DNA from: Escherichia coli
Lineage (GTDB): Bacteria; Pseudomonadota; Gammaproteobacteria; Enterobacterales; Enterobacteriaceae
NCBI RefSeq assembly: GCF_044324785.1
Contig: NZ_CP172128.1
Length of the DNA: 64,000 nt
Direction: 5' to 3' (one strand)
Below, one piece after another: positions 18,201-24,200 of the stretch. The position numbers are program-made. The first letter of the stretch is position 1. Every line of letters starts with the position of its first letter.

Positions 18201-21200
18201 CGTCAGAAACACAAACGCCCCGCAGAGAAAATTCGCCAACATTCTCCTTTTTAATGGCGCGCAATGCATCGCGGCAGGCCCGTTCGGTATGAAAGGCCTG
18301 GCTGTGCACCGCCAGTGTGGGCTGACGGGCATCACCGGAAGAGACATTAAAGGGCGATGAAAGCCAGAAAATCAGTAGCCACATGCGTCACACCTCGTCC
18401 TTTTTATGCGGGTATCTGGACAGAATATTGAGCGCCTGTAATGGCGCTTCATGCATTTCACGGATACAACGGGCATCGGTGATATTTTCCCGGTAATGTG
18501 TGGTTTCCAGCATCATATGATGCATATGGAGCATCCGGGCCAGGGCTGCGCGGAGTTCTTCAATATGTTGTTCATGGGAATGCTGGCGGGGCTGTATCCG
18601 GCAGAGAGGGATAACCTCCACATCATCCGGGTGCGCGCGAAGCCACGCGTCAGTGACTGCAATGTCGTCAGTGTAAAACCATGTGCCGGATGTCCCGTTG
18701 GCCAGAAAACGCATTTTCCAGGCTTCTGGGGTGGCGGTTGTGTTGTTATCTTTCATGGTGCCACCACTCATTCAACAGGCTTAATGCTGTCCAGGCGCAG
18801 TCTGCTCAGACTGTCGTGGCTGCCACAGCGGCGTCCGGTGCTTTTGCTGTAGCACTCCTGCCCCCTGATACACCATGCCGTTGGCGTTTCGTAGAGGCTG
18901 ACACGTCGGGTTTTATCTTTAATGATGAGAAGCCCGGTGTGAGTTTTTGTCTTTTTCATCGGTGGGGTACAAACGCAGAAATTTTGTTGTCATTACATCA
19001 TCAGTTTTAGCCTGCAGAGACGCTGAAAAATCAGCGTTTTCAGACCCTGTTCAGGTTAGTGAATATTCTTGCCTGGCCTTTCGGCAATATCAATCCCCTG
19101 GAGTTGCATGGATATGCCCATACCGTTGACCATGAGGCTGTTTATGGACTGAACACCACATTTCATCATGAGCTCAAAACACAGTGCGCTGAGCATGCCG
19201 AGCGCCTCTTCTGAGGACTGGCAGTGTGTATTCAAAAGAGTATTGAACTGTTTAACGATATCCGGGGTGAGGCACATACTTTGTATTTCGTCTTTCATGA
19301 CTACTCCTTATTTCAGGCATTTTGCATTTTGGGTTAATAACACGAAGCCCGTAGACGGAAAACCTGAGGCGTTCGGATGGGATAATTCCCGGGTATTTTC
19401 CTGTTCCGGATACAAAAAATATAACGGCATGAAAAGGATTGTGGCGGACAGGAAAACAATTAGAATAGCTGCGGGCGCTTGAGGCTGTATGCCGAAAGCG
19501 TTTTGTGGACGGCATGCAGCAGAAAGCCCCAGGCGATCTTTTTATCAATCAACCCAGGGCCCACTGTAATGCCTCAACAACATTATAGTAGCCCGATGAC
19601 GGCCGAAAGGCAATGGAGGGGCTGCGATGCCACAACGAACGTTTTTAATAATGTTAATCGTCGTCTGTGTGACGATACTGTGTTTTGTCTGGATGGTGAG
19701 GGATTCGCTTTGCGGATTTCGTATCGAGCAGGGAAATACGGTGCTTGTGGCAACGTTAGCCTACGAAGTTAAACGTTAACGGGCAACACGGCGGCAGGAC
19801 ATCTGCCGCCGGATTGTTGCGAAGGCTGACCTCAATGCGCCTTGTTTGTCTTTTTTACCGGACGATGGATCCCACTCCTCCTCATCAGTTCGTAGCAGAG
19901 TGTACTCAGCATGGCAAGTGCAGCTTCTGATGATTTACAGTGTGTATTCAGGAGGGTAAGAAATTGTTTAAAAACATCAGGGTTTATACTGGTGCTTTGA
20001 TATTCGTTACTCATAGTATTTCCTTTCAGGTCATTATTACTTCCGGATTTAACATGATGTCTGTAACCATAAAATAATGAACGTGTTCCGGGAGTCCTTG
20101 CCGTGTAGTTTCCCGTAAAAATACTGTTGTGCATTACATGTCATTAGGTGGAAACCGATTGTGGCAGACTGAAAATCGATTAGAATAGCGGCGGGCGCTT
20201 GAGGCTGTATGCTGAAAGCGTTTTGTGGACGGCATGCAGCAGAAAGCCCCAGGCGATTTTTTTATCAATCAACCCAGGGCTCTACTGTAATGCATCGACA
20301 ACATTATAGTAGCCCGATGACGGCCGAAAGGCAATGGAGGGGCTGCGATGCCACAACGAACGTTTTTAATAATGTTAATCGTCGTCTGTGTGACGATACT
20401 GTGTTTTGTCTGGATGGTGAGGGATTCGCTTTGCGGATTCCGTGTCGAGCAGGGAAACACAGTGCTTGTGGCAACGTTAGCCTACGAAGTTAAACGTTAA
20501 CGGGCAACACGGCGGCAGGAAATCTGCCGCCGGATTGTTGCGAAAGCAAACCTCAATGCGCCCTTTTTTACCTGGATTTCTGCAGCGCGTTTCAGCATAG
20601 CATGCAGTTCTGTGCTGATCCTTGCTTCCAGTCGGGCAGTTTGTGTTGCAGATGGCATGATTTGTACTTCCTGAATATACTGAACGGCAAATTGCCGTAT
20701 TGTGCTAATTACAGTCTGATACAGGGACGGCAGACAGGCATTCTGCCTGAAAAGAAAAAGCCGGTTCAGAGAAAACCGGCTGACGGATTACCGTCTAACA
20801 GTTGGTCGCTACCTTACAATACTTCTGCAACAGGCACACCGGCAACTTTTTCCCATTCTTTAACCCGATACCGAATCATCTGCGGGAAACGCTCTTTGTA
20901 CTCATATCCACGTGCAGCCATGGTGTGCATGGTGTTGGCCAGCGTCCTTGCTGAGATGCCGGAGATTTCAAGAGGGATCATCGGCAGACTCACATAGGTG
21001 GTGTGGATTTCCAGCTTGCCGTCTTCAGCAACTGTTCGGGTGAAGTTGTGAATATCCAGACCAATCACATCCATGACATTGTTTGGGTAAATGCGCACAT
21101 ACAGCATGGTGCCGTTTTTAATGTCGATCCCGAAATAGCAACTCTTCGAGAATGACAGTTGCTCGTAATCGCTGGTCGGCGCAAAGGGACTGCTTTCTTT

Positions 21201-24200
21201 TATCTTCTTAACAACCTGCAGGATTTTCTTTTTCTTCGCTCTGGTTTTCAGATATAGCCAGAGTAATGGGATTATGAGTAACGTCCAACTTCCATATGCA
21301 TATATATAATCATATTTAGTTGAATAGATATCTAGACTTAATGCTGTAAAAGCAATGGCACAAAAAATTAAAAATGGAACTCCAAATAAAAAATAAGCGT
21401 TGCGGACAAGGTAATAATATGCCCACCAGGAAGGATATCTGCTTTTTTGTTCATTCATAATAAACCTCCATATTCACCTGGTTGTATTTTAATATCACCA
21501 GGCGAATATGGCAATGCTTTTTATTTGTTTTTGATGTTTTTACTCTATTGTTTTATTCCATCCTTATCATCCCTATTAATATTTTTTAGTTTCTCTTCAC
21601 GAACGCCAGGTGTTCTGCGTATATTGGTGTTTCCGCCGGCAATAATATCTTTGACGGAAGAAACCATATTCCCCAGCATATTAACTCCGTCACGTCCGCC
21701 CAGGAAATTAATCACATGGTCTGGCAGATAAGCCTGAAGCGCAAAAACGCCCGCAACCAGTGTGGTACATGCGCGGGCATAAATCATCAAAAATCCCGCC
21801 ACGCTGAACACGCCTGTTACTGAACTTACTTGGACATTCATCAGCGCAGCAGCAAACAGTGCATTCAGTATTGTGCCGCCGGCCACGATGGCGACCGATG
21901 CAAAAAAGAACCCGAAAACCATCAACAGAGGCCTGATCATGCTGTCTATCAGGTAGATGTAACCGTAAGCAGCCCGGCTTCCCCGGTCCTGGCTTGTTCC
22001 CAGATGGGTGGCAGCCCACAGGGGGCCGGCGGCACATCCAATCAGCACGCTGACTATCCAGTTGCCGATGCCGGTCATCCAGAAGATAAACGGAATAAAC
22101 GGCAGGTAAATGGATAACGAAAAACCGGCACAGAACAGCAAAAACAGCAGGAAGTAGAGCGGTGGTGCGGAGGCTTCCAGAAAAGCCTTTGCGGCGTCAG
22201 ATAATCCACTAACGGCATTGACCAGTCGACCAAAAATGGAGTTGCTGCCGGCAGAGGAAAGCACCCTGACGGTGGTATAACCCGCCCAGATGGTCTCGGT
22301 TGTTACCATTGTGTAATCACCGATATCCTTCATCTTCAGCAGAGGATTTGCCTGATAGGATGTAGTTCCTGTACTAGAATATACAGTTGCGATTTTATAT
22401 GTCAGTTTCGAAAAGTCCGGTGACATTAACTTTATAATTGCACTTTGTGGATCATTTGTATTGGCAGCATATATCTCATCAGAAGATGTTAGATTTCCCA
22501 GCGCAGGAGTATATGGTGAGTTCTGCAACTGTGCCTGGTAAGCTCCTCTGACTTCCTTCAGGAACTCAGTATCTCCGGCTTCGCCCTGCGATGAAACTCC
22601 ACTCACAGTGGGGGCACGGTCGGCCAGTTCTGCCAGTCGCTGGTTGGCGGTGGCAAAGGTCTGGTACCAGGCCCCCAGGGCAACCCAGCCGTAGGTGGTC
22701 AGGTAGGATTTCAGCTGCTCCCTGCGCTCAGTTTCTGCGTTATCTGTTGGCAACGCCTTCTGCACCGTTTCTTCATACCGGTTGGCAGCCTTCTGAATAC
22801 GGCTTTCAATATCCGGCAGGTTGCCGTTACCCGTGTCGCGCCGGGTCCGGTACGCTGACACAAATTCCTGTGCTGCGCTGTCCAGGTCACGGAGCATGGT
22901 ATCCATGGCAGACCGTTGTGCCGTCAGGACTCCCTGATACTCCGTTTCAATGAAGGGATTGAAAAAATAGTCCAGCGCGGACTGGTTGTTGCTGCCATTC
23001 CCTTTCACGGTGAGACTCACACTCCCGCAGGTGGCACTGCCATTTGAAACGGTGACGGTATACCTGCCGTTCTCTGTCCGTGAGGATTCGCTCATGGGGG
23101 GCGTTGATGAACGGGCAGTACGGTTAAAGTCATCGAGGCCTGCATTCATGGCGTGTTTGCACAGCGCCATCTCCAGTATTCCCCGTGCTGCCGTGCGGGT
23201 GGAGACATGAACTGGCTGTACGGTCATTGAATAGCCTTCAGCAATGTTTTCTGCCGCTGTCTGAACCATGATATTGGCGGAACCGATGCCCATGATGGAT
23301 GCGCCCCACAGCATGACCAGTTGCGCCAGACTCCAGCCGGAAGCGGTGGGCACAATCATCAAAAATCCACTCACGACACTGAGTATGCCGACGACGTCCC
23401 GTCCGTTGTTAAAGACACTGCCCTGGTGGCCGGTGCGGACAACATGACGGATACCAATAAACAGGAACCAGACTATCCCCATAATGGCGATAATTGCGTT
23501 AAACACCATGAACAGGTTGCCGATAATGGTGTTGCTGCTGGCTGTCAGGGGATTTGTGACCACGTCGCCAAAAATGGTGACCAGTGCCTGGCGCGACAGG
23601 TCATCCGGATTGGTGGCGGCGCTCACAATGTCCTGATAGGTGACGAATGCCTGTGCAGGTACGGCAGCCAGCGCCAGACCCGCACTCAGTGCTCTGGGTA
23701 TGATTTTCACGATAACTCCGGAACCGAAGGGATGCAGGGCATCAGCCTCCGGAATGAGGAAAAGGAATTGCAGACCGGACGGTCAGTACTGCCGGTGGGT
23801 AATGGCCAGCCATGTGGCCTGTTTCCAGCCGTGCCGGGCCTGCAGGTAATCGGGGAAGGTGCCCTGTTCGTCCTCGCTGACCCGCCGTTCATTCAGTTGC
23901 CAGAGGCGGTATGACACAATCAGGGTTTTTGAGGCACACAGTGCTGCAATGGCACTCATCAGTAACAGGCAGGCCAGTATACGTATCAGGGTGATGGCCG
24001 GAAGCGCTGTGGCAGCAAGGGCCATGCCGCACAGCAGAAGTACCGGTATCATCATCAGCCAGAATCCTGTCCGCCAGAACATCCTGCGACGTCGCAGACG
24101 CCGATCCAGTTCGTTGACCGTAAGGCCGCTGGCCCTGACGGCTTCTTCCCAGGTCATACAGACCGGACTCTCCGGTTGCCGGTCGGGCATGAGGCGCTTC

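What the first reader, a model, noticed from the sequence alone, without database searches (positions are those of the whole stretch)
20814..21458. ExcA-like membrane protein with an AT-rich 5' half next to the DotA-like gene
Entry-exclusion proteins of I-type systems sit next to the large TraY/DotA-like protein and determine exclusion specificity. The N-terminal half of this gene is much AT-richer than the backbone, suggesting a diverged or recombined specificity region.
Basis: partly seen in the sequence, partly recalled or inferred. Interest (0 to 1): 0.3.

Follow-up and report, generated by a model that had tools for sequence, protein, structure and literature searches.

The report
Known plasmid entry-exclusion gene excA
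This is the ordinary, already annotated entry-exclusion gene excA of an IncK2/Z conjugative plasmid; its AT-rich front end is real and is the hypervariable part of the protein, probably the part that recognises the partner protein TraY.

Summary
ORF 20814-21458 (-) encodes a 214-aa ExcA (NCBIfam NF033891, 270 bits against a cut-off of 100; 51% identical to R64 ExcA). It lies directly downstream of traY (DotA/TraY family) on an IncK2/Z plasmid and is 100% identical to RefSeq-annotated excA genes.

Codons 1-85 have GC 0.33 and GC3 0.32; the rest of the gene has 0.49 and 0.57, and the window mean is 0.53. Amino-acid composition alone predicts 0.45.

In B/O/K/Z relatives the last ~130 residues are nearly invariant. 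Residues ~30-62 (outer halves of two predicted membrane helices plus their loop) differ by 60-80% between at least six types. A second AT-rich hypervariable island lies in traY (TraY residues 403-462). The window's alleles of the two islands always co-occur (24/24 plasmids, 28/28 E. coli genomes). One natural recombinant elsewhere uncouples two other types.

The low GC is shared by every allele examined, so it is a property of the hypervariable segments and does not mark a recent import into this copy.

The specificity role is inferred, not shown. Variable ExcA/TraY pairs are already published for I-complex plasmids. Verdict: real, correctly interpreted, already known, low interest.

The parts
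20814..21458 (-). excA coding sequence (214 aa, stop codon included)
   Evidence: ORF list. NF033891 'plasmid IncI1-type surface exclusion protein ExcA', 270.2 bits against a cut-off of 100. 100% identical to annotated excA in NZ_CP100531 and three other plasmids. 51% identical to R64 ExcA.
21225..21400 (-). AT-rich hypervariable island in excA. It is centred on ExcA residues ~30-62: the outer halves of the two predicted membrane helices and the short loop between them.
   Evidence: DNA identity to B/O/K/Z relatives is 57-66% here and 93-100% in the rest of the gene; GC is 0.25-0.38. For codons 30-85, dN is 0.31-0.44 and dS 0.42-1.0; for codons 86-214, dN is 0.003-0.013. Protein distance between types is 0.58-0.81.
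20817..21176 (-). Conserved C-terminal domain of ExcA (residues ~95-214), predicted PH-like beta-sandwich with C-terminal helices, predicted cytoplasmic
21486..21514 (-). Promoter-like site for excA (TTGCCA, 17-nt spacer, TAAAAT)
   Evidence: The consensus scan scored 10 of 12, but the number of sites in the region is no higher than in shuffles. Both hexamers are kept in all B/O/K/Z loci and in two of three IncI1/Igamma-type loci; the third has TTGCAC as its first hexamer. The surrounding intergenic sequence is diverged. The function was not tested.
21468..21510 (-). 15-bp inverted repeat (hairpin) enclosing the -10-like hexamer and abutting the Shine-Dalgarno sequence
   Evidence: RNA fold -29 kcal/mol, z = -6.5. 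In 11 loci, 9 of 15 pairs show changes on both sides, and 90.9% of cells are paired against 29-43% when partners are slid. There is no Rfam match.
20750..20781 (-). Terminator-like stem-loop with T-run, 33 nt after the excA stop codon
   Evidence: Consensus scan. A stem-loop is present at the same place in all relatives, with a different stem sequence in IncI1-type loci.
21545..23710 (-). traY (721 aa), the DotA/TraY-family partner gene
   Evidence: TIGR04346, 532.7 bits. 70% identical to R64 TraY.
22300..22530 (-). AT-rich hypervariable island in traY (TraY residues ~403-462 = 22325-22504)
   Evidence: Identity to relatives is 47-79% here and 85-100% in the flanks; GC is 0.34-0.45. GC3 is 0.30 against 0.60 in the rest of traY. 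dN is 0.38-0.45 against 0.006-0.04 in the flanks. This allele co-occurs with the window's ExcA allele in 24/24 plasmid records and 28/28 E. coli records.

Best explanation
The ORF is the entry-exclusion gene excA of an IncK2/Z (I-complex) conjugative plasmid. A cell that carries the plasmid makes ExcA, and ExcA blocks DNA entry from donors whose transfer apparatus carries the matching TraY. Published R64/R621a work supports this mechanism (Sakuma et al. 2013, as cited in PMC12365149 and PMC11493245).

Predicted anatomy:
- A hairpin of two membrane helices with both ends in the cytoplasm.
- A 6-16-residue loop facing the periplasm.
- A lysine-rich juxtamembrane helix.
- A conserved cytoplasmic PH-like domain.

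The AT-rich 5' part encodes the hairpin. Its periplasm-facing tip (residues ~30-62) is hypervariable. I infer that this tip is the specificity-determining surface and that it is matched to a second AT-rich hypervariable segment in the central region of TraY (residues 403-462). The central region of TraY is what R64 ExcA is reported to recognise. The invariant PH-like domain would be the common effector or anchoring module.

The two islands usually travel together as a ~1.4-kb cassette moved between backbones by homologous recombination. Their low GC3, seen in every allele, fits old, fast-evolving alleles under diversifying or frequency-dependent selection rather than a one-off import.

What is shown here: identity, anatomy, composition, variability pattern, allele linkage and mosaicism. 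What is inferred: topology, the specificity role of the hairpin tip, and any contact with TraY 403-462.
For: Family identity.

Composition.

Variability is limited to two islands in a 90-100% identical backbone. Island dN is 25-100 times that of the flanks, and dS is also raised. There are at least six N-terminal types on one invariant C-terminal domain.

Allele linkage. The window's ExcA-island allele occurs in 25 PLSDB records and its TraY-island allele in 24, all 24 among the 25. The 25th record has lost traY to IS1. In complete E. coli genomes the counts are 29 and 28, and all 28 are shared.

Across 11 B/O/K/Z loci the two distance matrices correlate (r = 0.64, Mantel p = 0.0004). Each correlates less with the flanks (r = 0.36 and 0.25).

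Mosaic block against L003. Structure. Hydropathy and charge.

Literature. ExcA targets TraY, with the central region recognised in R64 and the C-terminal region in R621a (PMC12365149, PMC11493245). Several ExcA/TraY variants are known in IncI1 plasmids (PMC8004404).
Against: - No functional data exist for this plasmid or for any B/O/K/Z ExcA type in what I could read.
- The two islands are only ~1 kb apart, so their linkage could be plain co-inheritance.
- One natural plasmid (L018, NZ_CP132731) carries ExcA of one type with the TraY island of another. The pairing is therefore not obligatory, or the TraY island is not the only determinant.
- R621a ExcA is reported to use the TraY C-terminal segment instead.
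- TraY topology is ambiguous by hydropathy, with two or three hydrophobic segments before the large domain.
- The Sakuma 2013 paper itself was not available. I could not check its exact segment boundaries or whether it mapped ExcA determinants.
Confidence: 0.9

Rival explanations
1. The AT-richness is only a by-product of the amino-acid composition of a membrane hairpin (Phe, Ile, Leu, Tyr and Lys codons are AT-rich) and says nothing about evolution or specificity.
For: The N-terminal 85 residues are rich in F, I, L, Y and K. The GC expected from their composition (0.449) is lower than that for the C-terminal part (0.492).
Against: Observed GC is 0.333, far below the composition-based expectation. 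GC3, which is largely free of amino-acid constraint, is 0.318 against 0.574. The traY island encodes a hydrophilic segment and shows the same GC3 drop, 0.30 against 0.60.
Confidence: 0.07
2. The 5' half of this particular excA copy was recently imported from a low-GC foreign donor, so the AT-richness marks a one-off horizontal acquisition.
For: The composition differs sharply from the backbone, and the boundaries of the diverged block against L003 are sharp.
Against: Every allele type of this segment is equally AT-rich, in both B/O/K/Z and IncI1-type plasmids (GC3 0.28-0.39), and so are all alleles of the traY island. The window's allele is shared at 93-100% identity by 25 plasmids in PLSDB and 29 in complete E. 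coli genomes. All homologues found are ExcA proteins of enterobacterial plasmids.
Confidence: 0.08
3. Exclusion specificity in this clade does not reside in the N-terminal hairpin. The hairpin varies because it is a weakly constrained membrane anchor. Recognition uses the conserved C-terminal domain and/or the TraY C-terminal segment, as reported for R621a.
For: L018 carries a mismatched ExcA-island/TraY-island pair yet appears to be an intact conjugative plasmid. R621a ExcA recognises the TraY C-terminal segment (PMC12365149). dN/dS in the island is about 0.3-0.8, not clearly above 1. Between IncI1-type ExcA proteins there is a further variable patch in the C-terminal domain (window residues ~158-175).
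Against: Some anchor positions are strictly conserved (F23, P28, P64, W67), while the loop-proximal part is replaced wholesale and changes in length. The ExcA island covaries with the TraY island more than either does with the flanks. If the invariant C-terminal domain were the determinant, all B/O/K/Z plasmids would form one exclusion group despite having a hypervariable TraY island. The TraY C-terminal tail differs little within this clade.
Confidence: 0.2

Closest known systems
ExcA of IncI1 plasmid R64 (and R144/ColIb-P9), NCBIfam NF033891 / Pfam PF27689 'exclusion-determining protein'
   Same: Same family: 270 bits against the model and 51% identity over the full length. Same gene order (traW-traX-traY-excA, followed by hok/sok-type loci and trbA). 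Same two-helix N-terminus and conserved C-terminal domain. Same promoter-like hexamers and upstream hairpin.
   Different: IncK2/Z backbone with higher GC (traY GC3 0.60 against ~0.41). The N-terminal hairpin type is different. The in-frame internal ATG that yields the annotated 'ExcB' product in IncI1-type genes (MYSRAK...) is a Leu here (LYLKTRAKKKK), so an ExcB-like product is not evidently encoded. The 69-aa 'HEAT repeat' ORF found after excA in R64 is absent here.
excA alleles of other IncB/O/K/Z plasmids (e.g. NZ_CP104118, NZ_KR905385, NZ_CP133855, NZ_CP151296)
   Same: C-terminal ~130 residues 97-100% identical. Same flanks, promoter-like site and terminator-like site.
   Different: Residues ~30-62 belong to a different type (58-69% different), and the TraY 403-462 segment differs in parallel (43-52% different). 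The window's type is a minority: 25 of 468 matching PLSDB plasmids and 29 of 5,426 E. coli genomes.
TraS/TraG of F-like plasmids and Eex/TraG of SXT/R391 elements
   Same: Same logic: a small inner-membrane exclusion protein encoded next to the large mating-channel protein that it recognises, with allele-specific pairs (PMC11493245, PMC8923210).
   Different: No sequence relationship was detected. The partner here is a DotA/TraY-family protein of a type IVB system, not a VirB6-like TraG.
Bacterial membrane-anchored PH-like (bPH / YdbS-YdbT-type) proteins
   Different: The resemblance is at the predicted-fold level only. There was no Pfam hit in the library copy used, and no sequence similarity was tested or claimed.

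Membership tests
ExcA, IncI1-type surface/entry exclusion protein (NF033891 / PF27689) | Sequence match to the curated family model above its cut-off | tested here: met
   270.2 bits against a cut-off of 100, covering model positions 2-210 of 210. PF27689 is precomputed on nearly all homologues.
ExcA, IncI1-type surface/entry exclusion protein (NF033891 / PF27689) | Homology to the experimentally characterised R64 ExcA | tested here: met
   BLASTP gives 51% identity over 219 aligned positions, E = 2e-90.
ExcA, IncI1-type surface/entry exclusion protein (NF033891 / PF27689) | Gene lies immediately downstream of traY in an I-type (MPF_I, type IVB) transfer region | tested here: met
   The order traW, traX, traY, excA is on the same strand with an 86-bp gap between traY and excA. 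R64 has the same order.
ExcA, IncI1-type surface/entry exclusion protein (NF033891 / PF27689) | Small membrane protein with an N-terminal hydrophobic hairpin | tested here: met
   Hydropathy maxima at residues 22-40 and 52-70. AlphaFold helices at 12-41 and 48-89. This is a prediction only.
ExcA, IncI1-type surface/entry exclusion protein (NF033891 / PF27689) | Reduces entry of the cognate plasmid when expressed in recipients (exclusion index well above 1) | not testable with these tools
   Requires mating assays.
ExcA, IncI1-type surface/entry exclusion protein (NF033891 / PF27689) | Allele-specific recognition of the cognate TraY | tested here: inconclusive
   The alleles co-occur in 24/24 and 28/28 records, and the Mantel test gives r = 0.64, p = 0.0004. 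However, the loci are tightly linked and one mismatched natural recombinant exists.
PH-like fold (pleckstrin-homology superfold) | Seven-stranded beta-sandwich capped by a C-terminal helix | tested here: inconclusive

The most novel reading that the evidence does not exclude
Within B/O/K/Z plasmids, the periplasm-facing tip of the ExcA hairpin and TraY residues 403-462 may form a co-evolving lock-and-key pair that defines at least six exclusion specificities on one invariant PH-like effector domain. On this reading, single-island recombinants such as NZ_CP132731 are natural 'exclusion-escape' plasmids: they can enter cells that carry their own parent type. In addition, the covarying 15-bp hairpin around the excA -10 element and ribosome-binding site would uncouple ExcA synthesis from tra-operon read-through.
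Probability: 0.4. Interest if true: 0.4.

Novelty: already known. Interest (0 to 1): 0.15.

Why it matters
Entry exclusion decides which related resistance plasmids can enter a cell that already carries one. ExcA/TraY types therefore matter for the epidemiology of IncI, IncK and IncB/O plasmids that carry ESBL/AmpC and mcr genes.

This gene adds no new kind of system. It is an already annotated allele of a known family. The comparative picture is still useful for typing and for designing chimera experiments: two short AT-rich hypervariable islands, a minority allele pair, and a natural mismatched recombinant. It extends published R64/R621a and IncI1 observations and does not overturn anything.

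Tried and rejected
- Pfam-A (library copy) gave no hit for ExcA or TraY. The family PF27689 is evidently newer than that copy; NCBIfam settled the identity.
- The key paper (Sakuma et al. 2013, PubMed 23201046) is not held. Its conclusions are taken second-hand from PMC12365149 and PMC11493245.
- R64 is not held under AP005147. It was found as NC_005014.
- Two attempts to extend the allele-pair set with metagenome or draft contigs were of little use. L011 holds only the last 290 codons of traY. L012 appears to have a disrupted or frameshifted traY, with no traY gene called. Neither was used in the statistics.
- The promoter and terminator scans are no better than shuffles. They are kept only because the motifs are conserved across diverged intergenic sequences.
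- I considered whether the terminal Leu214 (all relatives have Phe) marks a deletion junction. It is a single T-to-G change. The 500-bp difference from L002 is an insertion in L002 flanked by an 87-bp duplicate of the excA 3' end.
- I considered an internal 'ExcB' start as in IncI1-type genes. There is no ATG at that position here.
- Rfam has no family for the region apart from the two sok RNAs downstream.
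Full report
**1. What is at the coordinates**

The six-frame ORF list shows one long ORF at exactly 20814..21458 on the - strand: 214 aa with an ATG start. GGAGG lies at 21469-21465, a few bases upstream of the start. Upstream on the same strand are traY (21545..23710, 721 aa), traX (23783..24352) and traW (24349..25659).

NCBIfam assigns these proteins as follows:
- ExcA: NF033891 'plasmid IncI1-type surface exclusion protein ExcA', 270.2 bits against a cut-off of 100.
- TraY: TIGR04346 DotA_TraY, 532.7 bits.
- TraX: conj_TraX.
- TraW: conj_TraW.

The Pfam copy available gave nothing for ExcA. The homologues in the large protein collection nearly all carry the newer family PF27689, 'exclusion-determining protein'.

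The 645-nt gene is 100% identical to annotated excA genes in four complete E. coli plasmids (NZ_CP100531, NZ_CP119729, NZ_CP119733, NZ_CP119749). The best of these is typed IncK2/Z, MPF_I, conjugative. Against the reference IncI1 plasmid R64 (NC_005014), ExcA is 51% identical over its full length (E = 2e-90) and TraY is 70% identical. The gene order is the same.

**2. The compositional observation**

- The first 300 nt of excA have GC 0.357. The remaining 345 nt have 0.481, and the window mean is 0.526 (sd 0.062 for 300-nt windows).
- Only 1.1% of 300-nt windows are as AT-rich.
- GC3 is 0.318 for codons 1-85 and 0.574 for codons 86-214.
- With backbone codon usage, the amino-acid sequence of codons 1-85 predicts GC 0.449; the observed value is 0.333. 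For the C-terminal part, observed and expected agree (0.486 and 0.492).

The AT-richness is real, is beyond chance, and is only partly a consequence of hydrophobic amino acids. It extends outside the gene to about 21101-21730, covering the intergenic region and the last ~50 codons of traY.

**3. What the AT-rich part is**

I compared the traX-traY-excA stretch with five other B/O/K/Z plasmids in 100-nt windows. The backbone is 90-100% identical and is interrupted by two discrete troughs:
- excA 21225-21400: identity 57-66%, GC 0.25-0.38.
- traY 22300-22530: identity 47-79%, GC 0.34-0.45.

Divergence is milder (73-87%) over the traY 3' end and the intergenic region.

At the protein level the C-terminal ~130 residues of ExcA are essentially invariant in this clade. 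Residues ~30-62 fall into at least six mutually unrelated types of differing length.

Nei-Gojobori estimates between the window and other types:

| Segment | dN | dS |
|---|---|---|
| ExcA codons 30-85 | 0.31-0.44 | 0.42-1.0 |
| ExcA codons 86-214 | 0.003-0.013 | 0.09-0.28 |
| TraY codons 403-462 | 0.38-0.45 | >1 or saturated |
| Rest of TraY | 0.006-0.04 | 0.09-0.46 |

The islands therefore have both a much higher non-synonymous rate and older synonymous divergence. This fits long-lived allele classes.

All alleles of both islands are AT-rich: GC3 is 0.25-0.39 on a B/O/K/Z backbone of ~0.6, and similar in IncI1-type plasmids. Low GC is thus a property of these segments and does not indicate a recent import into this copy.

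**4. Linkage of the two islands**

A megablast search with the window's ExcA island found its allele (93-100% identity, full length) in 25 PLSDB plasmids. The TraY island allele was found in 24, and all 24 are among the 25. The 25th, NZ_CP075698, has lost traY to an IS1 insertion and keeps an orphan excA.

In 5,426 complete E. coli genomes the counts are 29 and 28, with the same single exception.

Across 11 B/O/K/Z loci the pairwise distances of the two islands correlate (r = 0.64, Mantel p = 0.0004). Each correlates less with the flanks (r = 0.36 and 0.25).

Against L003, the differences are concentrated in a ~1.4-kb block (about 22640-21225) that contains both islands, inside flanks that are 98-99% identical. 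This looks like a recombinational cassette exchange.

The pairing is not absolute. NZ_CP132731 (L018) is ~100% identical to L008 throughout, including the ExcA island, except for a ~600-bp patch that is 99-100% L009-like and carries the TraY island. Because the islands are only ~1 kb apart, linkage alone cannot prove functional coupling.

**5. Predicted protein anatomy and likely mechanism**

AlphaFold2 on a 25-sequence alignment (mean pLDDT 82, pTM 0.73) gives:
- helices at 12-41 and 48-89;
- a seven-stranded beta domain at 99-164;
- two C-terminal helices.

Hydropathy maxima lie at residues 22-40 and 52-70. A KTRAKKKK tract follows helix 2. By the positive-inside rule, this places both termini and the PH-like domain in the cytoplasm and the short loop in the periplasm. 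The hypervariable residues are then the periplasm-facing tip of the hairpin.

TraY has a signal-peptide-like N-terminus, two or three hydrophobic segments, a ~370-residue hydrophilic domain that contains the island, and a C-terminal cluster of membrane segments. From my recollection of the Legionella DotA topology work, which I did not verify here, the large domain is periplasmic.

Published work states that IncI ExcA in the recipient targets the donor's TraY, recognising the central region in R64 and the C-terminal region in R621a (PMC12365149; PMC11493245). Multiple ExcA/TraY variants are described for IncI1 plasmids (PMC8004404).

My best explanation is that this excA works like the R64 gene. 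I propose the hairpin tip as the type-specific recogniser of the TraY central island and the invariant PH-like domain as the common module. These last steps are inference.

**6. Expression signals**

The intergenic region holds a promoter-like TTGCCA-17-TAAAAT at 21514-21486. The hexamers are conserved in all B/O/K/Z loci and in two of three IncI1-type loci, although the surrounding sequence is diverged.

A 15-bp inverted repeat (21510-21496 with 21482-21468) encloses the -10 element and ends at the Shine-Dalgarno sequence:
- It folds at -29 kcal/mol with z = -6.5.
- It shows both-side changes at 9 of 15 pairs across 11 loci.
- 90.9% of cells are paired, against 29-43% in slid controls.

The repeat could be an operator. 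It could also be a hairpin in traY read-through RNA that masks the ribosome-binding site or terminates transcription. This is unresolved.

A terminator-like stem-loop follows the stop codon at 20781-20750.

**7. Comparison with what is known, and verdict**

The gene meets every computationally testable criterion of the ExcA family. It is already annotated as ExcA in RefSeq (WP_084818443.1). The window's allele pair is a minority type: 25 of 468 matching plasmids and 0.5% of complete E. coli genomes.

Differences from R64 ExcA:
- the hairpin type;
- no internal ATG corresponding to the annotated 'ExcB' start;
- absence of the small 'HEAT repeat' ORF downstream.

The caveats are that AT-richness is common to all alleles and that the specificity role is untested. 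Novelty: already known. Interest: low.

Noticed in passing
window 21468-21510 (- strand): A 15-bp inverted repeat between traY and excA encloses the -10-like TAAAAT and abuts the Shine-Dalgarno sequence. RNA fold is -29 kcal/mol, z = -6.5. Across 11 I-complex loci, 9 of 15 pairs show compensatory changes, including G-U pairs on the sense strand. It has no Rfam family. It could be an operator, or a hairpin or terminator in traY read-through transcripts.
   Followed up: partly
window 19431-20568 (+ strand): Tandem duplication (721-bp period, 92-96% identity) gives two hok/sok-type (pnd-like) type I toxin-antitoxin loci. The Hok/Gef ORFs are at 19627-19779 and 20348-20500. The Rfam sok matches are at 19473-19629 and 20193-20350 (123 and 120 bits). 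The closest relatives (L001, L002) also carry both copies; other relatives have one.
   Followed up: partly
L018 (NZ_CP132731) locus 1200-1800: A natural recombinant. The backbone and the ExcA island are identical to L008 (NZ_CP133855), but a ~600-bp patch of traY, including the hypervariable island, is 99-100% identical to L009 (NZ_KR905385). The ExcA/TraY pair is therefore mismatched, which may let the plasmid escape exclusion.
   Followed up: partly
L013 (NZ_CP075698) locus 1731-3312: An orphan excA of the window's type sits on an IncF-typed hybrid plasmid. traY has been replaced by IS1A directly upstream, so exclusion could be retained without the transfer partner.
   Followed up: no
window 20814-20900, compared with L002 4059-4645 and L009 4411-4997: Some relatives and the IncI1 plasmids carry a ~500-bp insert after excA with a 69-aa 'HEAT repeat' ORF on the opposite strand. 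In L002 and L009 the insert is flanked by an 87-bp duplicate of the excA 3' end. The window lacks the insert. Other relatives carry a 1.6-kb TnsA-N-domain gene at the same spot (L003, L010). The window's ExcA ends in Leu instead of the usual Phe because of a single T-to-G change.
   Followed up: partly
window 21800-21860 (traY codons ~620-650): A third, smaller variable patch in traY lies in a predicted membrane segment (NVQVSSVTGVFSVAGFLMIYARACTTLVAG). Identity to L010 drops to 73-76%.
   Followed up: no
window 6711-7450, 16431-17440, 31671-32050, 48081-48580, 54401-54800: These are the other low-GC stretches in the window (300-nt windows with GC of 0.37 or less). They were not examined.
   Followed up: no
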